Positions 36,260 to 63,240 of a stretch of 64,000 nucleotides of DNA are shown piece after piece. Source of the stretch: Phoronis australis (Eukaryota; Animalia; Phoronida); assembly GCA_002633005.1 (NCBI GenBank), contig NMRA01000074.1:897097-961096 (forward strand). The letters are read 5' to 3'. A program made the translations under genes and the position numbers. The notes beneath the pieces were generated by a model. The model was not told the origin of the DNA, did not search any database, and saw nothing but the letters and a program-made list of their open reading frames with translations. Numbering within the stretch: the stretch's first letter is position 1; each line of letters begins with the position of its first letter.

Positions 36260-37400
36260 AGAGTTATCACTTTTCTACATTAGGCTAAATAGATATTGTT
36301 TGGTTTGTCGTTTAAAAATATTTAAATCTGCCATTTCTCTCAGATGGACAGATTGTGAATTTCACAGTACAACTTGTATGCCTGAATTAAAAAGTTTTAT
36401 ATCCATGGGTTTTAACTCTTGGCTGAATGAAGCCATTATCGCTCCTTCTAGTAATCTGAGAATGACGTTGTTTAAATGCTGAAAATGGATCGAGGGATAA
36501 TTTGGGGTGTTGTCATGAGCAAATTTATGAGCAAGGTGGAGCTTTATTTGGTTGACTCGATTTTCAATATTTAGCCACCAAAAAGACTGAAAATGATTAA
36601 AAGCAGCGTGGGTATGAGGGTGTAAATTTTGTACATATCTAATTAATTTGCTTTGAAACACCTGGAGCTTTTTACCAAGACATCTATTTAAACTGGAAAA
36701 CCAGCTCGAACAAGCATAATCAAAGTAATGACTAATGAATTTCACAGGGTTTTACGTGACCTACGATCTAAGCATAATTTTTAGTCTACTAATTGTGCAT
36801 TTTTTAATAAATACGCTTGGGTTGTCTAGTCAAAAAGAGCTTGCTATCAATTTTGAGACCGATACAACTGGAAGAAGACCAAGAAGTGATAACACTGCCG
36901 TTACAAGTTACATTTCTAAAAATAATTGATTGAGTTTTACCAACATGTAGTGATGGTTTGTTGTTAAGAAACCAATTACAAAGGTTATTGACGTCATGAG
37001 TGAGAGTCTGCTTAATAACCGAGACGTTCTTATGGGAAGAAATAAAGCAGAATCCGATGAACTGTACGTACATGTATAGAATAAGTTTACAATCAACTGC
37101 AGATTCCATGCAATTGGCATACAGGAAAAAGAATAAAGGGCAAAGAATAGAATCTTTCAGTTCAGACGGCCAGCCTAGTATGTCAACAAGCTGTGGTTTA
37201 CATGTTAAATAATAACCAGATTTCTACAAATACACCGGGATTTGTCAACATCGTCACAAGATGTGGTTACATTCCAGTCAACTTCGTTTAATTTGTTGAC
37301 AAAGTTGATAAGGAATTGACACCACCTTAGCGTAAAATCGTTGTTGTTTTATTTGGTTGTGTTTAATTCTTAGTTTTGCTCTTTCTATACAAGGTTGAGC
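36260..37400 (-). mobile_element. Degenerate 5'-truncated LINE (L2/CR1-group) reverse transcriptase remnant
   Basis: Frameshifted pieces: DCKLILY...DSALF (YADD region), DVNNLCNWFLNNKPSLHVGKTQSIIF, and HYFDYACSSWFSSLN...KKLQVFQSKLIRYV. Confidence 0.8.
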
Positions 37401-45600: not shown

Positions 45601-45792
45601 ATGGCGATGTCAACAATCTTAAGTACGTTTTTCTTATTGTTCTTTTTTTCTTGCTGCCAATGCAGACGTCAAGTAGAAATTCCGGGAGATTTTGTCCTTG
45701 AACAACCGCCTCTTACTGTGACTGCATTCAATGTGCAAGTCCTAGGACTGAGAAAGTTGGCCAAGGAGAATGTCATGGAGGTTGTCAAGAAG
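45601..45792 (+). CDS. DNASE1: DNase I exon 1
   Basis: Signal peptide MAMSTILSTFFLLFFFSCCQC, then ...LTVTAFNVQVLGLRKLAK...VVKK|gtaagt. Confidence 0.92.
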
Positions 45793-48700
45793 GTAAGTCT
45801 AAATGAAACAACACGTTTCTACGGCAATTAGCATGTTTTGCCAGGAATAACAACCAATCGCTACAATTTAAGAATAACAAGCCTTAGACCTGGATGTAAA
45901 AAAACTCAGAAATAGAACAAAACGAGAAAAGAACATATATGTTTTCCAAATTGATCATCTGATTGTGTTTCAGTAGTCATACATCTTTCACTTTCGTCAG
46001 GTACACAAAATGCTTGAGTCGTTGATTGGGACCATTTCATTGGGCACAGAACCCCTGCTTGAGTGTAGAATATCGTAAGGTGTGAATTTTCGAAACAAAG
46101 ATCTGAACCCATGTTTGGATGGCGTACGAGGGCAGTTTTTGGACATCGGCGTAGGAAGCATTTGATGGTTGGGGGGAGGAAAGTCTGTTAAATTTTCAAT
46201 TTTATTCTAAAACAAAGTTCATGAGTTTAAAGTTTTAATGATTAATTGGTAATTAATTGATACCATCACCTAGAATATTGGGATGGGGCAGAAGGGTATC
46301 CGCCCCCAACCTTTTTGGCTGAGGAGCGCCCGTCCCACCGTTTTTGCTCCTACCTCTGCAGCAGATCTATCTTTTGTTTATTACTTCCCTGACCTTCCCT
46401 GTACAAAATCCTACAAGTTCTCTAGCTGCCCACCCTCCAATCACCTACTTTCACCTGCTAAACTCTGACTACTGAATCACGCTCTTGCTTATGATGCATT
46501 TCTAATAATTTATATTACCTTTGCTGCCCAAATGTTTTCTTCATTTACTCTATATTATGCCTTTATGTATTTGTTCAATACACTGCTCATAGTTTATATT
46601 CTCTATATTTTTAAACAAGTAGTAGCGTATGTTGAACAATTATGGGTAAAGTGTTGGAATGTTTTTATTTATGTCTTCATTTCAAAAAGCGGTACAATTA
46701 ATGACCGCAATATGCAAGTACGCCGAATGGTAATTTTGATGAGGTATGTAGTCAAGTGGCAGATTTTTGCAATGAATAGCAGCATAGACCTCCAGCAATG
46801 GAATGCCAACAATGATTTCGCGGCCTCTGAGGTTGCGCCGCGCATGGATGAGAGTTGTTTGCTTTCGTTTGTTCCGGTGTGTGTAGCTATGGAATTAACT
46901 GTCGTTAAAACTTTGCAACTACGCTGATTTTCAACTAGATTGCATAAGAGCCATATCAAAAGCTCTATGTCGGGACTTCCGGTTAAAGATGGAGCATTTG
47001 GGCTCGTAAAATTTTCTCTCCGATCTTTGACCAGCGTCATGGCTGACAATTTACTATAAGCAACTGCGGTTTTATAACAACCTGACATGTTTCGGTGTCA
47101 TTTATTCAAACACCATAGAGAGTATGGTGGCCACCTAGCTAGGCCCAGCATCAAGTGATGAAACACAGACACAGTCAGTTACAGGGAGTGTCAATAAACT
47201 AGACCATAATGACATTCTGTGGTGTGCCAGTTGCCTATTGAGCCGATTGGGCTTGCACCAACTGATGGGTAGAGCTTCACGAATTTTAAGCTCTTTTGTT
47301 GTATCTTTTTGGTCTATTGTAAAAAAGTCATTGAGAAGAGCATTGCTGATGACAATGATTGGAGCTCTGTAGATGAATATTTATATGTGAACCTCTGTCA
47401 GAATTTGGAATTGCAAGTAAATATGGGCTTGGGGGAAGTGCTCAGAAGTACCACAAACGTTAACAACGCTGGTAGTGGCGTAACCGGGGGCAGCGAGTCC
47501 AGTTCCGAGGACGAAGTTGAACGCAAACCGAAATGGTTCAAATCCCTGACCGGAGAAGACATGTCGACCATGCGTACGGTAAAGTCGCGTGATTTTCGGA
47601 CACTGAAAATTAATTCCAATAGAAAAAAATCATTCTTGGACGAATCTCGCGAAATATCATTTTGTGGTGTCCGAATTTGGCGGACCTCCAAATTTGGGTT
47701 TCGGCTAGTGTCCGAATTTCGTGGGTGTACATTATTTCGATGAGCGGTCGCAGTATCAACAATGCTGGCTCGGTCATTTGATAGCTGTATAATTGCAGGT
47801 AAATGAGACTCAANGTTTGGAGTTCGAGGAGCTGTTTTAAGGGCAGTCGCATGTTTGTATATGAGGATTTTCCGAGAAATAGCTTGCGCTATAAAAACGC
47901 TTCTACCATTTTTGAAAGCTGCCTTAGGTCATATGTACATGTACCAACTATGATTTGGTTCGAGAAAAGCTGTTGATTGATGGAGTAATATACACAGTTG
48001 ACAACATATTAAGTATTATTCCCCAGTTCCTAGGCCTACTGGGCACACAGGCTGAATGATACAGATCAGGGGCAAGTTGACATCAAGTAAAGTGGTAAAG
48101 TAGGTCATTGACAGCATGATACTCAGCTAATATTTTTGTAGATAATTATAATAAATGTTGTTCTGTCTCGTACATGTTATACTTTGTGCCTATGACCATT
48201 GTATATATTTCAATAAATCACTGGATACTCATCTAAACCGCTGGCTATTATTTTGAAAGTTTTCAGACTACAGTTACCCTGCAGGCTCACCGAGTTAGTA
48301 GATTTGTTGACTAATGGTTACGCCTTTTACGCCGAAAGGCCCATAGATATGTTTTTCCATAGAAAGGTGAAACAGCATCTAAACTATTTTTGTTTAACTG
48401 ATGTCACTGTGAGTTTTTAATTTGATTAATTGATTTTCGTGTGTAACTGTGATTTCTTTTTACACTGTCGCTACATGTTGCGTTTCTAACTAATTTGGCC
48501 AAGCAGTCGCAGATATAAGGGATTAGTCTACACGTTACACATTTAAGATATAAATGTGGCCTTAGAGTCCACAAAACTTTTAAATCTCACTTCAACAAAA
48601 ATGCAAAGTCTCTAAAAATATACAGTTTCTGAGATAATTTCAATTTTTTCTAGACTGTGACGCTCTCATAATTTCTTGACTAAACAATTTCAGCAACCAT

Positions 48701-51700
48701 GAAGTGGTTGGGTAAGACCAAGGTCATGTTTTAACTCCTAAGTCCCATTCATGAAACATACCCATTGTGACATCTTGGGAAGTCTTGTGAAAACTTGCGT
48801 TTTCGCGAGCTTTTCGTATGTACAAACACAAAATTTTAATCATCCCTTGTTTGCTATGTGCAGAGCTAGAGACTTTCTTGTGCAAGTTTACGCTACAACA
48901 TAGCGCTTTAAGGTGTTAGGGTTGTTCAATACATACACACTTTTTTTCATATTCCTACAGGTAATATTGCAAAGCGACATCACTCTCATCCAGGAAATAA
49001 GGGATTCAACTGAAGTCACTGCAGAAGCGATTCATTTGTTAGTTAACAGGTAAGATCATCGATAACACAAGGTACACGGTTGGTCAGGCTATTCAGGGGT
49101 GAAGACTTTCTACTAAATCATCCAGTTTCCGGGGTTTGAAGAATTTGCTCTCTGGGCAATTTACATTTTATTTTCAGTTATTTTTGAGAAGGCTGTTATC
49201 GGTGTAGGACACTGTTCTCTTGCATGGATCGTACTGACTGTTTCGATGTATACTTCTATAGTCACACATGCACACAATGAATTGGTATCAAAAAGACATT
49301 CCTGTTTTACAAAGTATGGTGTTAATGGGTTATGATTTCTTTCTATCTCAGCACATCTGATCCCTTCGGTTACGTGGCCAGCCAACGTCTAGGCAGAACT
49401 CACAGCAAGGAAAAATATGCGTTTTATTACAGGTAAACTACAGTGTATAGAATGTGTAAAATTCAACACGGTAAAACGATCTTGCGGCTCAACCGTCTCG
49501 CGATATATTGCGGAGTTACGTATGGCGTTTCGAAATCCGGCAACTATGACAGCTTTCATGTTTTTAGGTAAATGCACACGTAACTGTGGTGCGTATGTAC
49601 ATGTGCACGTGCGTTATAGTCAATAAATAACAACACTGTAATGCATACTTTGAAAGATTCTTTTTAATGTATCATGTATATTCTTTAGAGAATATACACT
49701 TCATAGTTAAAATGCTAGAACAGTCTATTGCCTTTTCCCTTCTTTTCAGACTATAAATGTTTATAAAATGAAAACAATTTGCTATTTTAAATAAAAGTTG
49801 ACTTTCCATGCATCTTTATTTTCAGGCTCAACAAGGTTGAGTTGTTAGACACCTATCAGTACCCAGATCCGCATGATTTCTACGAAAGGCCGCCCTTCCT
49901 CGCTCGTTTCAAGGCCCTCAACATCAATTCACTGAAGGATTTTGGTGTACTAGCCATCCACACATCACCGTCCGATGCCGTTGAGGAAACAAGTCACCTG
50001 GTGGACGTTTATGACGACATACAGCGACACTACCATTCCCTTGAGGTGTGTATTCAAGTTGAAACAGGCGTTTGTCGTCATATGATTTATGTTCGTTGCA
50101 GACTAAATGCAGAACACCGCGCCTTCCAAAAACTTGGTTGATTTCGCAACTTGTTTCTTTCTTCGTTAAAAAGATGTATTGATATACCTATCGAGGCTTC
50201 ATGCAGCTTACTCGGCTAGCCAAGTTGTCGTGGTTTTTGTGTTTTGTTTTGAAAATCGGCACAAATGCAGGTACGCCAGGTTAAGCAAAGTTTGAAGTAC
50301 CATGATTTGAGAAACGATGGGTAAAACATCCTGTTCCGGGGGGTTGAAAATGTGAATCATTTAAAAACAGTACAGTTATCAAACAAAGCATAGACCAGAC
50401 CCAAGATTGTATTTTGCAGTGTTTCAGTTACGTTTTTGGAAGTAACGCTAATCTTTATCCTGGGAGAATGTAAGCGCAGTCTACAGTAGCCTTTGTACAA
50501 GCACTCTTCATTCCCCGAAAGTGCACATTCGTACGGTCACCTTGTGTCAATTCTCGAAGTGAACCATTTTGACGTGATGGTACTGTAACTGAGATACATG
50601 TATCTCTACAGCGAAATTTTCTCTCAACCCATAGAATGTTCTGATTGCCGGAGACCTGAACGCCGACTGTAACTACATAGACGGCAATGATTGGTCGAAG
50701 GTGAAACTGAGGAACGATCCGAGGTTTCTTTGGCTTACTTCTGACACGCTCGACACTACTGTAAAGACTACGGATTGCACTTACGACAGGTTTGCACTGC
50801 AATGGTCCCGCATCTACTTTGACGTAATGTTGTTTGGGCTTAACTCCAATCTTATTTTATATTACATTAAAAATGTAACTTGGACTATCTTGACCTTACG
50901 GAAGGCAGCTCTGCCGTTATACGGTGGCTGTGAACGGACCTCACATATTTCGAAGTGAATTTTCTAGAAATCTTTATAGCCTAAATGAATTGATGTCCAG
51001 GTAGAGAACGAAGTGATAATCCCTTGACAGTCACTGTATGTAACGCTGACTGTTAACGGTTTACGATCAAAATCATGACACGCTAAAATAGAGCGATCTG
51101 CTTCCCATAATTCCTCACACTATCCGTAAAAGAGCCGACAGGTCTTAATGGTAGCCGGGAAGACTACCTAATTTTTATTACAACTACATGTCGGTATAAT
51201 ATGTTATTTAGTACATCACTGTGAAATTTTGATAGGTTTGTAGCGGCTGGAAAGGCTCTTCAGAAAGCTTATATTCCTGACTCGAGTGGCGTAATAAGAT
51301 TTGACTTGCTACTGAATTTAACCGAAACCGAGGTACGTACTATACAAAGGACCGATTTGAAGTCTGAATGCAATGAATATACCTAGGTGGCGTGCTACTT
51401 TATAGTCGTTTGTTCTTTTATGAATCAAACACTAAGCTGTGTATACATGTATATAGCTATGTATGGGGACAAATCGAACACGATTCTGTTCGACAACAGC
51501 CAGTCTGTCAAAGGTTCATTTTGTTTCCAGCACCTAAACGTGTCAGTTAACATTTATATTTCTCCCATGTTATCAATATTGAATTCTCCGCAACACTCCC
51601 AATCAACTAACTATAATGTTTTGGGAAAAGAAGTGCCTTGTTAAACTCCGTTAGTGGATTTTTTAAAATTACTTTTTTTATTTTTAGGCACTGCAAGTGA

Positions 51701-54700
51701 GTGACCATTATCCAATAACACTGCAATTTGCTGGAACAGGTGAGACATGACTGTCTTTAAAGCTGTTTCCTTTCTGTTTCACCTCATCTTAATTTCGCCA
51801 AATTTCGAGAACTATTAGGCCGTAAATTGGACCATCAACAGTGAAGGAGAAATAAATTGCGAAATTTTGATGAATTTTCAAGGCCTCTGAAGCCTAATTT
51901 GCAGGCCAGTACTTTACGTGTGTATACAATTAACGTCACCAATAACCACATCCTGGCGTTAAATCGCCATTCACATAAGTATCTTCACAAACAACGTCAT
52001 CGCGTTCTTATCCTGTGAATTGATATTGTTTACAAAATGTCCCCTGGAAGTTGTTTGGCTGCCATATTTCTTCGGGTGTTAAAACTATGCCGCTGTAACG
52101 ACCAAACTGCACGACCACGTATCCCCAAGACATACTTTAACAAGTTATGTAGGAACCTAGAAAAATGATCATAATAGGCAAACGTCGGAATATCGCATCT
52201 CACTAATGGCTGATTTAACTGAGTTAAAACTTTCAGATACTATACTTTGCCTTTCTTCCAAAACGGGGTTGGGGATTATCTTTAGAATGTTCCTATTTTT
52301 GCACGAGGCGTAATAAAATGGGACTGTTATGATTTTAATGAAAAAGGTCTAAAGTTGCATGAAACGAAAACGAAATATTTTAGAAGACAGTAACAACATT
52401 TCTGATATCTCAACTTGACTATTTACACCAAACATTTTTGCTCACGTTATTGATACCGTTGTTTTGTTATTAAAGTATATTTCTTTCTTCACTAAATTTT
52501 TCAAAATGACATGGTCATGTTACCCAATTAATGACAAATCTGTTTAAGTAAAACTACCAAAATCAAATTGGCAAAACGTTCCGTTGCCTGTGCATGTTCA
52601 CGGCGCCTCTCTAGTATTTCTTGATCAGTGTATTCCGGTTCGAACCGGTAGCCTGTGAAGCCTATAATAACGATCCGACCCGTGTAGTCTTCGTCGGAAG
52701 AGCTCTTGACTAAGTCGGGATTGGCGCCGGGCGAGTTGCGCGTAGACGTTTATTATTCTGCGTTCTGTTTCAAAATGAATTATTCTCATAACCAATATTT
52801 ATATGAAACCGAATCAAAGTCTGTCTCATTGGCTACAATTTGTATTGCCTTGGAGTGCTCGTACATTGTAAGTGCAAATGTTTTAAGAAGCCAGCAATAA
52901 ATAAACCACTGCGTTACCGGCTTTTGATGCCGGCAGCAAAAGTAATTGACCGGGCACCGAGGCCGTGTGAGCGCATGCTAATTCTGTGTTCGCTGACAGA
53001 AAGCTGTTGTGAAACAATCACTCTATTTTATATGCTATGGTCGCATGTTAGGGGAATTTTAGAAATAGAAATACATTATTCAAATCATTGTTACTGTACA
53101 ACCTTTGCCCTGACGGTTGTGTGGAAGGGGAACCCAACTTTGCGGGCCCCGACAAGTAAGCAGATTTTCAGTTTCGTGGCTAATTCACATAAATAATTAC
53201 GTGCACATTATTTCTTTGGCTCAATATTATAGTCTTTTCGTGACTGGAGGTTTAGTTTCCAACTCAAGCTGGTTTATGTTCGTGCCAGTTCCGGCGGTCG
53301 CGACGGGCCTAATCGGGTTCCGAGCCACTGGCCGGGATAACAAGCGTTTTGTGTGTTTAGAACTCAAAAATCACAAGACAAGTATTAACTACACAGATCT
53401 AGGTTCTCCTGCCTGTATTTCACGGAAGAATACTTCGAATTTATCTCCTAATAGACCCCAAATCCTGCTACGTACTTTGGTAAATTGGCCTGCCGAACTT
53501 TGTAGGCTACGATGTTTCCAAATGCCAGTAAATCCGTGGCAGCGAAATAAAACAACACGTTTTTACAAGAACTCGGTGTATTTTTAAGGGTTTTACATTG
53601 AATTTTGAGGATTAATTGGTGTTAAACGATGACTTCAAGCGATAAGCTGACACCAGTAATCCGTGTTGTGACCTGAACAGACTGCGTGTGAAACCAATTA
53701 CGTCATTGGATAATTTCAACACCTCCGTCTGCCGACAGGTGTCAGGTAACGCAACCGAACCTGCCGTTATTGTGTAGAGCTACTCGATCTAAACTGATAT
53801 AAAATAGGTTGTTTTTGCCTGGCATTCTCCTTTAAACTGTTTTACGGTTTTCTTGCCTCTCATCGTATTACCGGATGTTGCATTTAATGCGCTTGATTGT
53901 CGTCAGTTTTTTTGTCTGGTCAACCAGCTGAGACATCTGATAGGTTGTCGAAGCAGAATCCCGGCTTAGTAATCAATTAGATGGCTACAGCGGAACCGGC
54001 GAACAAGTCAAGTGCAGCCATTGGTTATCTGATGGTGCACAGTATTGGGACGGGTGGTGCGAAAAAATAAGCATTAATATTAAAATGACCTTACGTGTTA
54101 AACAATATAACTACAAAACGAAAGTGTTGGCTAAAACATGCGTTCTGCTGTTGCATTCACTGAGCTAATCCTAATATTTAATGCTTTCAAATTTGAAATT
54201 TTCAAGCTAAACATGTTCTAGTTTGTTTTGACAAGGCGAATTTAAACCTTTGTACTTAATATCTTCTGCAGTAGCTTAAACGACGTACCTGTGTGTGAAA
54301 ACAGTCATACAATCAATCACTCTTTACTTTTATACTATGTCATATACAAAATGTTTCAAGTTTAAAGTTATCTTATCAATAAACAAAACAACTGATTGTA
54401 TTCATAAATGCTTAAAGTTGCTTATGATTTTGAGAGTAAGACAAACCACCTTTTCTACGACCGCGGATTATTATCTAATAGCAAATCAAACAATTGAAAT
54501 TCCTTCTGAGCTAAAACGTTATTGTGAGTAGACTGGTCCGGTACAAAGATGGACTGTTACGGAATGTTTGATACTTTCATGTGTAGACCCTGACCTGACA
54601 CCGGTGTGTTTCTGTTGCTTTTAAAAGTGTCGGTAGTTCAGGAAGAGTCTTGTCAATCGATGTGTGGCGTAGGAATTTAATCAGTCACGTATGTATTGCG

Positions 54701-56624
54701 CACCATTTAAGCACAGTAGACAACCACGGTCATTCTTAATCACATCACTATCCACGTGGAGTGTGAAGTTATTGGTCGAAATGTGCGCGGGCCCGGTTTA
54801 AAACTATAGTGTGAAACCTAGAAACCATAGCCAAACAGAATAAAGAGGGACCGAATTTAAAACATTATAAGTAGGTGAAATATAAAGGATTATCGTGAGC
54901 GCACTCGGGGGGGGGGGTCTCGGGGGGCTCTTTCGAGCCTCCTATGGCGAGGTGGACAAAATGGTCTGCCTCAGGAAACAGAAGCTCCGAAAAAAGTAGA
55001 AAACGAGACAAAAGTCCACTGAAAAGGCAGGAACTACTACAGTTCGACGAATACACATTTCATAGCTCTATACGTGCCCCTTGAATCTTAGTAAGTTCTC
55101 AAAATTTCGAGCCCCCAGTTTTAGGCTGATGTGCCCATGGTTTTGATTAAACGTGTGGGTTTATTACCCCTTTAGAAGATAACAGAATATCAAAAGTCCA
55201 TAAACTCTGCGTGAAAGAAACGTCTGCAGAAATTACGCCAAACTCCTCAAAAGATCCGATTTTTGGATTAAAAACATGTTAGCGTGGCTGCATCGTTAAA
55301 AAGATATTATCGGCGTCAAAAGACTCGGAGGTTTACTGAGATCAACCCCAACGCGCAATTCACAACCCCAGTAGTGGCATTGTTGCGGGCGTATGAATGG
55401 CCCTTGGGAGTAAAGTGTCGCCATAAACTTACGCGGCAACTATAATTACGTTACGCCGCAAATAATTACTTTACGCCGTTAAACTATGCTAAACATAATT
55501 ACTACACGCCGTTGAATTACGTCACAAATAGTTACGTTACGCATTTAAATTACTTAGCAAATAATTACTAAACTCCGCAACCATTTACTTTACGCCACAA
55601 ATATTTAATTCACGCATCTAAATAATTACTTCACACTTCTAACAAGAATTATCTTGTGCACGTACATGTAGTTTAACGGCGTAAAGAAATTCTTTGCGGT
55701 GTAAAGTAATTACTTAACGCCGCCAATAATTATTTTACGCGGTAAATAATTTCGTTATGTCGCAAATAATTACTTTACGCCGAAAAAAATTAATTTACGA
55801 TACCTATAAGAATTAATTTGGGCCCGTAATTTTACGGTGACACTTTCACCCCAACGGCCCACCATATGGGCGGAGCTAAACCACAATCGATAAATGAAAA
55901 AGCACTTTAAGCGTATTTGGTGAAGCCACCAGCGTTGATTCCAGCGAATGGCTGCCAGACATCGGAAATTCATGAGTAATAAGAAACAGCATGCTTTGGT
56001 ATTTATAGCTCTGGTTAAAGCAAATAATTTCAAGAACTCTATTACTTCTAATAATGGGTGGGATGTTACGAGCGATGGCAGGTTATTCGAACACACCATA
56101 CGACCACGCAGAATAATAAGTTTCAATATTGACTTCTTGATGTGGAACAGAGTGTAAAGGTTGTTCTGTTGTTAATTGCAGCCAATGTTGCTCTTCAAAG
56201 AAGTTTAAGCACCTCCACAGAATACACTGTTGAGAGCAAACTTCCAGTAGATGACGTCAATAGGATCAGAGCCATCTATCGTGCAGCCCGTGGAACGCCA
56301 CCCACAACCCCAGGCACAGGATTCGAGGTAGAAGTATTACAGAGGACTTCGGGAGGGATACTTTACGTCACTGCCACTAAGCGCAACCTTAGCTACGGAC
56401 ATATCATGCCGTCCTTAAATGAATTTTGTGAACAGTTTACTGGTGTTCTTAAGAAACCACTAATAGATGGCGTCCTTGCTTATATTATATCTGACGTGAT
56501 GAAGCCTTCGTATGTCTACGGGCTTGATATTGAAGATACTCGTCTTTTCAATCTCGAAGTCCATTGCAGGGTGAAAGATCCGTTGACTTGTAAAATAATT
56601 GTTGTCCTTCAGACTAGCGATTAG
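45601..56624 (+). CDS. DNASE1: Deoxyribonuclease I family protein (secreted), 8 exons, 442 aa including a C-terminal extension
   Basis: Exons are 45601-45792, 48961-49049, 49352-49432, 49826-50045, 50635-50789, 51236-51332, 51688-51739 and 56182-56624, all GT-AG and phase-consistent (0,2,2,0,2,0,1). Motifs: signal peptide, AFNVQVLG, LIQEIRD, RLGRTHSKEKY, AIHTSP (H134), AGDLNADC (D168/N170/C173), DTTVKTTDCTYDR (C209/D212), VSDHYP (H252). The symbol denotes the family, not proven orthology. Confidence 0.9.
48961..49049 (+). CDS. DNASE1: DNase I exon 2
   Basis: cctacag|VILQSDITLIQEIRDSTEVTAEAIHLLVN-AG|gtaaga. Confidence 0.92.
49352..49432 (+). CDS. DNASE1: DNase I exon 3
   Basis: tctatctcag|C-TSDPFGYVASQRLGRTHSKEKYAFYY-AG|gtaaac. 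Confidence 0.92.
49826..50045 (+). CDS. DNASE1: DNase I exon 4
   Basis: ttttcag|G-LNKVELLDTYQYPDPHDFYERPPFLARF...AIHTSPSDAVEETSHLVDVYDDIQRHYHSLE|gtgtgt. Confidence 0.93.
50635..50789 (+). CDS. DNASE1: DNase I exon 5
   Basis: ccatag|NVLIAGDLNADCNYIDGNDWSKVKLRNDPRFLWLTSDTLDTTVKTTDCTYD-AG|gtttgc. Confidence 0.93.
51236..51332 (+). CDS. DNASE1: DNase I exon 6
   Basis: tttgatag|G-FVAAGKALQKAYIPDSSGVIRFDLLLNLTETE|gtacgt. Confidence 0.88.
51688..51739 (+). CDS. DNASE1: DNase I exon 7 (catalytic His; reads through to TGA 51750 if unspliced)
   Basis: tttttag|ALQVSDHYPITLQFAGT-G|gtgaga. Confidence 0.9.
55392..55866. mobile_element. MITE with long TIRs and internal ~21-22-bp repeats in both orientations, in DNase I intron 7
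   Basis: TATG..TGGCCCTTGGGAGTAAAGTGTCGCCATAAA is inverted relative to TTTACGGTGACACTTTCACCCCAACGGCCCACCATA; internal AATAATTACTTTACGCCG units. Confidence 0.7.
56182..56624 (+). CDS. DNase I exon 8: ~147-aa C-terminal domain of unknown family
   Basis: Acceptor ttgttctgttgttaattgcag|CC is phase 1, matching the exon 7 donor. The frame is open 443 nt to TAG, and AATAAA at ~56913 follows an AT-rich 3' UTR. Confidence 0.7.
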
Positions 56625-57047
56625 AAGGTTACTCGACTCAGATTACAGAACGTTTGATTAGTTTGAGATATTGACTGTCTTCTGAGCGCTCGGTACGTAC
56701 CACCGGTGTTCTTTGAGTGTATTAGTAAGCACCTGAGGCATGGGGCATAACTGTTCCAATTACTCCAATTACTGGCTCGATGATGAAGTCTAAATACAAG
56801 CCTATCTTTGAATTGTAACTATTATACGAAATTGAAGTTTTAAGGCATTTTCATTAATCTATATATATACCTGGCTTGACATATAAATTGGAATTAAATG
56901 AAATCATGATGAAATAAAAAGCAGTTACCGCTACTTAAAAATATGTTGTGTTGCTGAACCAAACTCTTGTAGCATCTTAAGTTAACCGTGTTGACAAGCA
57001 TCTGTGCTGCAATTCACAGGTGTTCGTTTCTAGCGCAGGTATGCAAC

Positions 57048-57199
57048 CAGAGCTGTAGTGGTAAAATTAGAGGAAAGTAGTCGCCCAAACCCCACCGTTT
57101 CACCTTGAGCACTGAACGTAACTTACGATGCGTACATGTAGGCGCTTCGTTCAAATGCCAAAAGGTGGTTGGCTGCGCCTACGCCACGCTACAGCACTG
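57048..57199. mobile_element. hAT-family MITE, second copy of 16484-16639
   Basis: CAGAGCTGTAGTGG ... GCTACAGCACTG; flanks TATGCAAC / TCTGCAAC (7/8 TSD). Confidence 0.8.
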
Positions 57200-57835
57200 T
57201 CTGCAACCAATGCCGAAGTCTACTTAATAGCAGAAGAAACACGTACTGCTCTGTTGCGCTATTTTGGCGAAGACTAAGCCTCAGTTCACAGCATTTTCGA
57301 AAATCAATTATTTGGTGAAGGTTGGTTCACGAAGAGTTCTTTTGCTTACGGGAACTTGTCACACGTTGTTTATCTCTGTACGCATGACCTCATAATCTAT
57401 CCCCCCGAACCATCGAATCACCTGAATAAATCATTCATCATACATGTACATGTACATCTTGAACAGTGTGCAACGTCACGAGTATATATGCGAGCGTAAG
57501 AATTCCTGATTCTGTTTCAAAGGATAGTAATTTGTGGGCACGAAATTATTATTTGATGATTGTCAATGACAAATTGTTCATTTGGTTGATTTGATTTTCG
57601 GTCAGACAAGCATGTGGGTCGCCTGAATGAGGTCTGCTTTTCATAAGCCAACTTTGTAGGGGTGTGTAAAACTTTGCGATACTATAGACCATGTCGGATT
57701 GGTTCGGATTATTGAGTGGATCTTGTTGATAATTCGAGACCACTATGCCATTTTGTGACGCCGTTGACGTTACCACGATCAAGTTATTCCCATTGGTTTC
57801 CCAAAGACAGTGCTATCATCATGACATTGTCACTA

Positions 57836-60539: not shown

Positions 60540-63240
60540 AAAGAAAAAAAGTATGGAAGAAACTCCAGTTTGGTAAGTGTATTTATCAAAAATGAATTAG
60601 GTAAATAATTTTGACGTTTAAAAGTGGACCATATTCACAGTGTATTCTAAAGGGGACACAACGACGTTATTAATTGATTGATTTATGTAGCCCCAGAACT
60701 GTCGCCAGTGTATGAAAACGCCGCAGAGAAACAATGGGCTAACCCTGTTTGGCCGGAAGTTGTTGAATTGTCCCAGAAGTTTTGTGATTATCATTTTGCT
60801 GTCATTGGTGGCCTAAATGATACAGTAGGAAACTTGCAAGACTATATTTTGGATGATAGCGAGGATTTCTTACCGTGTCAGAACTGGTCGGATAATGACA
60901 CATTTTGTTCTCCCAGACAAGCACCACTGTAGACTGTTTGTGTCAACAAGTCTATTCCAACATATTTCCGATTTTAGTGCAGACATATTTGTAATCATTT
61001 TCTTAATTTTTGTAATGCTGCAGGTAATTGTGTTTACGAAAGTCGTTGCAGAGTTAACCAATCAACATCACAATCGCACACTCGGCTAAAGTGGGACAGT
61101 GGCGAGTACCAGAATTCCATGAAGTGATCTCCAATTGCCTACCAGAAAGTCTAGATCGAATAGTTGGACAGATTGCTCGTGGCGACTAAAAAAGTGCAAC
61201 AGATGGTGTCACAAATCTGTAGAAACACACAACAATGACAAACAGAAACGCGTTTATGCTAAACGGCAGATCAAACAACCCCTTGGGGTGACAAAGAATT
61301 ACAAACTGCAAAAAAAAACTAAAAAATCACTCTTTGAATGTTTTTCGAATAATACACTTCCATCGGAAAATTGGCAGACAATATACAAAGAAATACGAAA
61401 CAATTTCGCACGTTTTACAAAAAAAAGAAGAAGAGTATCAAGTTGCTAGAAACTATTTGGATAGCAGAAATAATCGAAACCAATTTTGGGCTTTGGTAAA
61501 CTCAAATTTTAATAGTACTCTAAAGGAATTCTTGATTATCCAGAACGATGGTACATGAACGTTTCAATTCGTTGTTCAATGAACCGAAGGAACTAAGCGA
61601 CACTACGTCAAATGAGGCCGTAAGACAACAAGAAAGCCGTGGCAATTATTGTGATGCTTGTGACGTAAATTTACCTGACCTGAATATTGCTTCTAATGTG
61701 AGGAAATTGACCGAGGTACTGTATACTGGATATTCCAAACGGAAAACCCGCTGGCATTGATCATGATTGTGCTTGAAATGTTGAAGAGTACAAGGGCAGC
61801 TATTATTCCTGTATTGGAACTGCTCTTCGATGCAATTCTCTCTACACATTACTACCCACAGGGCTGAACTGACGCAATAATTGTTCCCATATTTAAACAG
61901 GGTAACACTGAAAATGAAAACAATTATAGAGTTATTTCATTATGGTCAGCAGTAGGAAAGCTATTCACCAAACTTCGAATAACCGGCTTAATTAAAACCT
62001 GGTTAGAGGCAAATGACGGACTTCATGAACCACAGGCGGGATTCCGCAAAGCTATTGCACACAAGACCACTGTTTACGCTTCAGACTATGTGCCAAAACT
62101 AAAGTACATGTATATACCGGGGGTCGTTTTTGTTATGCTTTTGTCGACTTTTCGAAGGCGTCTGACAGAGTTCCTCACATGCTACTATGATGCAGATTAT
62201 GAAAATTGTGGTGACCATAGCAATCTACGTACAGCAAATATCGTTCGTGGACTCGAGAAAGGTTAATCGAACTCCTAGGTAATGCCCAAAACATTAGATT
62301 TATATCAATGAACATGCGCTTCTCAGAGCGTACAGTATGAGAAGTGGTATTATGGAAATCAATTAGTGCAGGTTATCTCCCAATGAATATCTTGGAATAA
62401 TTTTACACCAAGATTAGTTTGGCCAAATGCGTCTAAAACCGTTCAAGGTAGTAAGAAACCGGTACACGGAATTGCAATTGAGCCTATCACTTGAGCTGTT
62501 TGTAATAAGTGGTGTGCCAATGGCTACGATGAGGAAATCTACGGATTTAAAGAAGGTGAATGGGTTGAAAGTGTATAATGTAAAATTACTCTTGGAGTTG
62601 AATGCTATCAGCCAAACGCAGTTGTATCCGACGAAAGTGGAATTTGTCCTCTTTATGTCGCATGTTTAAAATAGAGCTTTTGAAAATGCCACCCACTAGA
62701 TGCATTAAACAGCTTACAAAATGTTAATTGATTTAGATTCGAATGGAAGAAATACTTGGGTATCTTCTGTTAGACAATTGCTGTCAAAATATGTTTTTAT
62801 GAAATTTGTTTTGAATCGAGGTGTTACGTGCTGAGCCTCCGTTTTTAGTATCTTCGTGCAAAAAATTAATGACTGCTATGGCAGCTCAGATGGCGAGGAA
62901 AAACTGAGCGTAATGCAAAATTTAAATACCACCGTACTGTTTTGAACCGAGAATGTGGAATGTTACCATAGATTATGTTTGATTTGCAATGGCGGTCTTG
63001 TAGAGGATGAATACCACTTCTTGTTGATTTGCAAGGAGTATGAACGAAGTTAAGAGGAAGAACCTAACTCAATAATCCTGCAGACTCCTTCTGGCTAATC
63101 CAGACATGTCCGTTGTGTATTCTGCACTTAACAGAAGAGAACAACTCTTAAATACGTTGACTGTGTATGCTGTAAATGTGCTTGCTTAATTTATGTTTAT
63201 TGTACTTTGGGCCAGAGGCTTTTATAATACAAATATTAAA
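60540..63240 (+). mobile_element. Decayed non-LTR retrotransposon ORF2 (AP endonuclease + RT; RTEX/L2-like)
   Basis: Endonuclease remnant IYVAPELSPVY...VIGGLNDTVGNLQDYILDD. RT remnants AIIVPIFKQG...NNYRVISL.SAVGKLFTK, W.EANDGLHEPQAGFRK and AFVDFSKA.DRVPH. Many frameshifts and stops; A-rich 3' end near 63230. Confidence 0.8.

What the first reader, a model, noticed from the sequence alone, without database searches (positions are those of the whole stretch)
51688..56940. DNase I with an optional ~147-aa C-terminal domain of unknown family
Seen: right after the catalytic SDHYP strand, a phase-1 donor (G|gtgaga) matches a phase-1 acceptor 4.4 kb downstream. That opens a 443-nt frame (ANVALQRSLSTSTEYTVESKLPVDDVNRIRAIYRAARG...FNLEVHCRVKDPLTCKIIVVLQTSD*) followed by AATAAA. 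Without splicing, the protein ends at ...FAGTGET* (51750), a normal 298-aa DNase I. Known: vertebrate DNase I paralogs carry only short tails (basic in DNASE1L3, GPI in DNASE1L1). Inference: this is a folded alpha/beta accessory domain with a C-x7-C hairpin, possibly for targeting or oligomerisation, switchable by intron retention.
Basis: partly seen in the sequence, partly recalled or inferred. Interest (0 to 1): 0.72.

Follow-up and report, generated by a model that had tools for sequence, protein, structure and literature searches.

The report
DNase I with conserved unnamed tail
This animal's DNA-cutting enzyme DNase I has a spliced-on 147-residue tail that recurs behind DNase I in snails and other animals and matches no family or solved structure searched; RNA reads showed no tail-less form, and the tail likely helps the enzyme hold DNA, which is untested.

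Summary
The splice is real; the switch was not seen. RNA reads join 51739 to 56182 (4, 4 and 1 reads in three runs), while depth just past the donor is 0 in all three. In the two better-covered runs exon 8 is as deep as the catalytic exons. The expressed product is therefore a 442-aa DNase I with its catalytic motifs intact plus a 147-aa tail. The tail is conserved: 9 of 12 phmmer hits span it (25-34% identity), 4 of them fused behind DNase I with no alignment gap (abalone, Gigantopelta, two unnamed). An unnamed animal contig has the same 52-nt exon and phase-1 intron. AlphaFold predicts a compact alpha/beta fold (pLDDT 83). Pfam, NCBIfam, PDB sequence and Foldseek searches found no match; the best VIA Z was 5.2. 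Likely role (inferred, about 45%): an extra DNA- or chromatin-holding surface, like the DNase1L3 tail but folded. 'Vertebrate paralogs have only short tails' is incomplete, since DNase1L5 carries a somatomedin B domain. This scan already reported the same domain on other DNA (e1-7143032, e1-9948497). Verdict: new variant of a known enzyme, moderate interest.

The parts
45601..45792 (+). Exon 1 (coding part): ATG, hydrophobic N-terminus (likely signal peptide), first strand with the N7-equivalent Asn
   Evidence: model; hydropathy peak 2.59; sense-strand RNA depth in X1/X2; the 1->2 joint is not among the listed joints
48961..49049 (+). Exon 2, E39-equivalent
   Evidence: joint 49049->49352 in 7/5/2 reads
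49352..49432 (+). Exon 3, E78-equivalent
49826..50045 (+). Exon 4, H134-equivalent
   Evidence: RNA depth
50635..50789 (+). Exon 5: D168, N170, C173, C209, D212 equivalents
   Evidence: aligns to DNase1L3 (7kiu, E 5.5e-13) and DNase I (1dnk, E 1.5e-12); joint 50789->51236 in 4/5/3 reads
51236..51332 (+). Exon 6
   Evidence: joint 51332->51688 in 4/3/1 reads
51688..51739 (+). Exon 7 (52 nt), SDHYP motif (D251/H252 equivalents), phase-1 donor
   Evidence: same 52-nt exon and phase in L001/L003
51740..56181 (+). Intron 7 (4,442 nt, GT-AG); in-frame stop at 51748-51750 if unspliced; holds dispersed repeats
   Evidence: spliced out in 9 reads; no read-through
56182..56624 (+). Exon 8 coding part: the 147-aa unnamed alpha/beta tail domain (P0001) and TAG
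56625..56918 (+). 3' UTR ending near the AATAAA at 56913-56918
   Evidence: sense-strand depth 3.1/2.96 in bin 56612-57015 in X1/X2; cleavage site not mapped

Best explanation
The gene makes a 442-aa DNase I whose last exon is spliced on and adds a conserved 147-aa tail, predicted to fold as a compact alpha/beta domain, which likely gives the (likely secreted) enzyme an extra surface for holding DNA or chromatin. Shown: splicing, intact catalytic motifs, conservation of the tail and of its gap-free attachment, no short form in these reads. Predicted: a five-strand sheet with three main helices and a terminal beta-hairpin. Inferred: the tail sits close against the core, since no linker gap is tolerated in six sequences, and the conserved R-x-x-Y-R helix plus basic strand positions bind the DNA backbone. 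That would raise affinity for long or protein-bound extracellular DNA (gut contents, mucus, dead cells, extracellular traps), working like the DNase1L3 tail but as a folded domain.
For: Junction reads 4/4/1 and no read-through. Exon 8 depth 4.8 and 5.9 in X1/X2, against about 3.4-7.4 on exons 2-7 (my arithmetic from the bins). All 12 motif positions I checked are present in the window protein, and the 10 non-Cys ones also in the three full-length homologues checked (the numbering is bovine DNase I, partly recalled, and anchored for exon 5 and for P0012). Tail homologues: 9 of 12 hits; 4 of the 9 carry PF03372 in front; a fifth (P0009) lies behind a DNase SDHYP exon in L001/L003. Model pLDDT 82.8, pTM 0.79. 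R30 10/10, Y33 10/10, R34 9/10, R130 6/10. The tail is net basic in 8 of 11 sequences, while the core is acidic in the window (-10) and in 4 of 5 homologues. Precedent: the DNase1L3 CTD binds dsDNA with KD 4.9 uM (PMC9381713 section 13).
Against: No direct evidence of function. The window's own tail has net charge 0 (pI 7.0) and two homologues are -1; only the four gastropod sequences reach +10 or more. The conserved Arg/Tyr residues could equally contact the core or a protein partner. I could not inspect the model surface. The fold searches gave no nucleic-acid-binding match above noise (best Z 5.2). In run X3 exon 8 is almost uncovered (0.04) while exon 6 reaches 2.5-3.6, though on very few reads.
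Confidence: 0.45

Rival explanations
1. The tail is a structural or maturation module: it packs on the core and is needed for folding, secretion or stability (for example against proteases or salt in gut or seawater), not for substrate binding.
For: Attachment without gaps in six sequences. Mostly hydrophobic-core conservation plus a P-x-V-Y-G-L segment. Precedent: the SMB domain of DNase1L5 was reported as required for recombinant production of active enzyme (PMC9208542, passage). Charge is variable.
Against: Solved vertebrate DNase I chains of 260 aa fold without it. Invariant Arg residues are more typical of a binding site (inference).
Confidence: 0.22
2. The tail targets or oligomerises the enzyme: it binds a protein, glycan or surface (mucus, matrix, cell membrane) or forms a homodimer.
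For: The tail is predicted to fold on its own. It has conserved Arg/Tyr positions whose overall charge context varies. Vertebrate paralogs diversify by C-terminal localising parts such as the GPI anchor of DNase1L1.
Against: No partner identified, and no match to a lectin or adhesion family in Pfam. The strands alternate hydrophobic and polar residues, which suggests a polar open face rather than a dimer face (inference).
Confidence: 0.23
3. The tail is optional: intron-7 retention or intronic polyadenylation makes a regulated 298-aa tail-less DNase I in some tissues or stages.
For: Read-through gives an intact core with a stop three codons after the donor here, and two codons after it in L001/L003. 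There is an AATAAA at 51851. Exon 8 is thinly covered in X3. Only three samples, about a fifth of each read.
Against: 0 depth from 51740 to 52179 in all three runs. Such early stops occur at 12% of donor-like sites, and AATAAA occurs 1.1 times per kb in this window. Exon 8 depth equals core depth in X1/X2.
Confidence: 0.12
4. The exon-8 frame is an independent gene, a transposon remnant or a chance frame.
For: Five of the nine homologues are domain-only records, and the context of three (P0008, P0011, P0013) could not be read.
Against: Direct junction reads. Fused proteins exist in RefSeq (XP_067685659.1, XP_046543027.1, XP_041372276.1). P0006 is labelled partial, and P0009 proved to be an exon behind a DNase exon.
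Confidence: 0.01

Closest known systems
Vertebrate DNase I / DNase1 family (EEP superfamily, PF03372; PDB 1dnk, 4awn, 9fju)
   Same: Catalytic and metal-binding motifs, the C173-C209-equivalent Cys pair, a hydrophobic N-terminus.
   Different: The solved chains end at the last core strand (260-282 aa); this protein continues for 147 aa.
DNase1L3 (PDB 7kiu) with its basic C-terminal domain
   Same: A C-terminal addition to the same core; proposed analogous job of raising DNA affinity.
   Different: The DNase1L3 CTD is a short, intrinsically disordered basic peptide (PMC9381713 section 13). This tail is 147 aa, predicted folded, and neutral in this species. No homology was shown.
DNase1L5 with a C-terminal somatomedin B domain (PMC9208542)
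   Same: A DNase1 with a named, Cys-containing C-terminal domain.
   Different: SMB is a cysteine-rich Pfam domain (PF01033). This tail has 2-5 Cys and does not match it in Pfam.
RefSeq 'deoxyribonuclease-1-like' of Haliotis asinina (XP_067685659.1) and H. rubra (XP_046543027.1); 'deoxyribonuclease gamma-like' of Gigantopelta aegis (XP_041372276.1); Lottia gigantea partial ESP03293.1
   Same: Same core-plus-tail layout (core 47-52%, tail 35% identical); Lottia record is tail only.
   Different: Automatic names ignore the tail. The H. asinina protein lacks a hydrophobic N-terminus, has Gly at the C173 position and has a strongly basic tail; the window protein keeps the hydrophobic N-terminus and the Cys and has a neutral tail.
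Weak fold neighbours: small domain of fold-type IV aminotransferases (3sno, 8pnw) and a large-subunit ribosomal protein (9g6k_LY, 3j6b_O, 5h1s_U, 5v7q_S; that these chains are uL22 is recalled, not from a call)
   Same: About 90 residues superpose at 3.3-3.4 A, Z 4.1-5.2.
   Different: Z is below the level the tool calls typical for unrelated models (7-8); identity 4-12%; a common alpha/beta arrangement only.

Membership tests
DNase I (DNase1) family | EEP fold core similar to solved DNase I | tested here: met
   Exon 5 hits only the five DNase I/1L3 PDB sequences, E 5.5e-13 to 1.3e-10. Homologue P0012 hits the same five at E <= 1.4e-56; the window core is 45% identical to P0012.
DNase I (DNase1) family | Catalytic and metal residues (N7, E39, E78, H134, D168, N170, D212, D251, H252 equivalents) | tested here: met
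   All present in the spliced model; numbering partly recalled, anchored.
DNase I (DNase1) family | C173-C209 cysteine pair common to the family (PMC9208542) | tested here: met
   C206 and C242 of the model.
DNase I (DNase1) family | N-terminal signal peptide | tested here: inconclusive
   Hydrophobic stretch, peak 2.59 on a 9-residue Kyte-Doolittle window; no signal-peptide predictor was run.
DNase I (DNase1) family | Divalent-cation-dependent DNA cleavage at neutral pH | not testable with these tools
   Needs an assay.
DNase1L3-type (basic disordered CTD) | Short, basic, disordered C-terminal peptide | tested here: not met
   147 aa, net charge 0, predicted folded with pLDDT 83.
DNase1L5-type (SMB domain) | C-terminal somatomedin B domain PF01033 | tested here: not met
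   No Pfam match for P0001 at E <= 1; 3 Cys only.
DNase1L1-type (GPI anchor) | Hydrophobic C-terminal GPI signal | tested here: inconclusive
   No GPI predictor was run. The C-terminus is a predicted beta-strand of the domain ending in polar residues, with Lys/Arg common there in homologues, which argues against it.
Any solved fold for the tail (e.g. uL22-like, fold-type IV aminotransferase small domain) | Significant structural superposition | tested here: inconclusive
   Foldseek PDB 0 hits at E <= 0.001; BFVD 0; VIA best Z 5.2, none >= 8 among 48,161 chains.

The most novel reading that the evidence does not exclude
The tail is an undescribed domain family, possibly with a fold not yet solved, that has been attached to one DNase I lineage since early invertebrate evolution through a conserved phase-1 exon. 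It is a structured DNA/chromatin-binding module that gives invertebrates a DNase1L3-like ability to clear packaged or extracellular-trap DNA by independent means, and it could be grafted onto therapeutic DNase I as a folded affinity domain.
Probability: 0.3. Interest if true: 0.62.

Novelty: new variant of a known kind. Interest (0 to 1): 0.42.

Why it matters
DNase1 paralogs get their specialised jobs from C-terminal additions (basic peptide, GPI anchor, SMB domain; PMC9208542). This is a further and much larger addition, conserved at 21-49% pairwise identity across distant animals. It is unnamed in Pfam and NCBIfam, has no solved relative, and was not found in the papers I searched. It gives a concrete, testable handle on how invertebrates digest extracellular DNA, and a structure target. 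It is not a surprise at the level of a new system: the enzyme is ordinary, fused gene models already sit in RefSeq, the proposed splice switch was not seen, and this scan has met the domain twice before on other DNA.

Tried and rejected
No whole genome is held for this window, so paralogs could not be counted. Word-indexed searches found nothing for the tail among longer proteins (0 of 316 candidates) or for exon 4 (0 of 10), and only P0014 with the profile (1 of 7,995); these are weak negatives. Three of the 12 phmmer hits (P0003, P0004, P0010: long repeat-rich proteins matching 45-51 residues) were dropped before counting; the family profile scores them at E 0.043, not listed, and 1.9. Pfam gave no consistent family: 8 families, each in 1 of 10 members, best E 0.018. 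NCBIfam gave none for the tail. PDB sequence search gave one hit at E 1.2 and none with the profile. ESM Atlas: no usable hit for the abalone tail; the full-length P0012 returns ordinary DNase clusters. The single-sequence model (pLDDT 45) was not used. Fold searches gave no significant match; this does not show that the fold is new. Metagenome scan with P0001: 0 of 166 stretches confirmed. The prokaryote-genome scan with P0008 gave one 23-residue match (L004) that the profile does not recognise, rejected as chance. No run was listed as an indexed RNA holder; the runs came by species label, and their exonic reads fit closely. The tail tree is unresolved: 1 of 7 inner branches supported. The core-tail complex prediction was never run because the queue was full, so there is no result on packing or oligomerisation. 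dN/dS was not estimated because no close relative was available. Literature: six full-text searches listed no paper describing this domain; the library lacks most subscription papers, and the FASTA and alignment supplements of PMC9208542 could not be read and may contain tailed invertebrate sequences.
Full report
Observation. I rebuilt the gene from the window: eight coding exons at 45601-45792, 48961-49049, 49352-49432, 49826-50045, 50635-50789, 51236-51332, 51688-51739 and 56182-56624, all with GT-AG introns. The spliced frame is 442 aa; left unspliced at intron 7 it stops at 51748-51750 after 298 aa. No whole genome is held; the organism is an animal, probably an invertebrate (inference from the homologues), and I did not identify it.

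RNA. Three stranded RNA-seq runs with the same species label were laid on the gene, 18-19% of each run, plus one contig set that does not cover the exons. Joints at the predicted sites: 49049->49352 in 7/5/2 reads, 50789->51236 in 4/5/3, 51332->51688 in 4/3/1, and 51739->56182 in 4/4/1. The 1->2, 3->4 and 4->5 joints are not among the listed rows (23 rows were not shown). At 40-nt resolution and 82% likeness, depth is 4.85/5.0/1.0 on the last 40 nt of exon 7 and 0/0/0 from 51740 to 52179. Exon 8 has depth 4.8 and 5.9 in X1 and X2, sense strand only, against about 3.4-7.4 on exons 2-7 by my arithmetic from the bins. So the tailed form is the one expressed, and the retained form is below about 28% (0 against 9 reads, 95% bound). 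One caveat: X3 has almost no exon 8 coverage (0.04) while exon 6 reaches 2.5-3.6; counts are tiny and it shows no read-through either. The neat stop after the donor is ordinary: 18 of 145 donor-like sites stop as early, and 2 of the 6 other introns stop at codon 1.

The core is an intact DNase I. Exon 5 matches only the five DNase I/DNase1L3 sequences in the PDB. All 12 motif positions checked, including the His pair, the acidic metal ligands and the C173-C209-equivalent pair, are present (numbering partly recalled). The N-terminus is hydrophobic, so secretion is likely; no predictor was run.

The tail is a conserved domain. phmmer over 1.84 billion representatives gave 12 hits. Three are long repeat proteins matching 45-51 residues and are rejected by the family profile. 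Nine span the domain, at 25-34% identity in alignment. Four of the nine carry a PF03372 core directly in front: Haliotis asinina, Gigantopelta aegis and two unnamed records; H. rubra came as a cluster member, and a Lottia gigantea record is a partial tail. The junction aligns without a gap from SDHYP into the tail in the window and five fused homologues. For one domain-only hit (P0009), contigs L001 and L003 show a 52-nt SDHYP exon, a phase-1 donor, a 608-618-nt intron and then the tail exon, the same structure as here. The context of P0008, P0011 and P0013 was not readable. No hit has the tail on a different kind of protein, but this rests on one single-sequence search and weak word-indexed ones.

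Structure. With a 10-sequence alignment AlphaFold2 gives pLDDT 82.8 and pTM 0.79: strand 12-18, helix 26-37, strands 49-54 and 60-70, helices 72-85 and 92-102, an extended P-x-V-Y-G-L segment, and a terminal hairpin 122-130/137-144. Cys129 and Cys137 are both present in 8 of 10 rows and each is singly replaced by Val once, so a disulfide is plausible but not required (inference). Invariant positions are R30, Y33, V63, L79, F82, G114 and P134. No Pfam, NCBIfam or PDB-sequence match. Foldseek found nothing at E <= 0.001 in PDB or BFVD. VIA's best Z is 5.2, to an aminotransferase small domain and to ribosomal chains (uL22 by recall), below the typical background. The fold is unassigned, not shown to be new.

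Mechanism. Function is inferred. I favour an added DNA/chromatin-holding surface (0.45): the only strongly conserved polar residues are Arg30, Arg34 and Tyr33 on one helix, the tail is net basic in 8 of 11 sequences beside a mostly acidic core, and the DNase1L3 tail does this job as a disordered peptide (PMC9381713: abstract and section 13 read). Against it, this species' tail is neutral, two others are -1, and only gastropods are strongly basic. Rivals are a targeting or oligomerising role (0.23) and a folding or stability role (0.22); regulated tail-less isoforms in untested tissues (0.12) are a separate question. The complex prediction could not be run because the queue was full. The DNA-holding idea also appears in an earlier AI note of this scan that I saw before committing to it; that note is not independent evidence.

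Known context. Mori et al. 2022 (PMC9208542; I read parts 1-2 of 7, 12 search passages, and term searches in 2 supplements; its FASTA and alignment files could not be read) describe C-terminal additions in vertebrates, including a somatomedin B domain on DNase1L5. The passages I saw treat invertebrate DNases as an outgroup and mention no such tail. Six full-text searches (listings only, apart from the two papers named) showed no description of it. The scan itself has reported the same domain twice on other genomes.

Verdict. A real, expressed, conserved and unnamed domain on an ordinary enzyme; the splice switch is unsupported. New variant of a known kind, interest 0.42.

Noticed in passing
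window 29789-27522 (- strand): A 756-codon uninterrupted frame with a PKD_channel (PF08016) match at residues 548-694, E 6e-7: an apparently intronless TRP/polycystin-like cation channel gene in an intron-rich genome.
   Followed up: partly
P0005 (Haliotis asinina; H. rubra P0015 is 95-98% identical): The abalone tailed DNase I lacks a hydrophobic N-terminus (peak 1.68 against 2.5-3.1), starts with a basic stretch and has Gly at the C173 position; Gigantopelta lacks both Cys of that pair. Gastropod versions may act inside cells, unlike the window's.
   Followed up: partly
window 52572-54187, 54996-55399, 57016-57400, 46916-48127: Intronic and flanking repeats attract many divergent RNA reads from both strands; these come from copies elsewhere and are not this gene's transcript.
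   Followed up: no
window 45793-48960: Intron 1 is 3.2 kb; the next intron position in vertebrate DNase I genes was not compared.
   Followed up: no
L001 30-81 and L003 636-687: In this unnamed animal, read-through of the same intron also stops two codons after the donor; chance accounts for it, but it leaves an intact short enzyme possible there too.
   Followed up: yes
window 61100-62700 (+) and 36365-37223 (-): Broken frames that read like decayed LINE reverse-transcriptase fragments (recalled resemblance; no Pfam match at E <= 0.01 for the two pieces scanned).
   Followed up: partly
window 44575-44156 (- strand): A 140-codon frame that reads like protein but has no Pfam match; possibly an exon of a neighbouring gene.
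   Followed up: partly
run X3, window 56208-57015: Exon 8 and the 3' UTR are nearly uncovered in this one run although exons 5-6 have 3 junction reads; unexplained, low counts.
   Followed up: no
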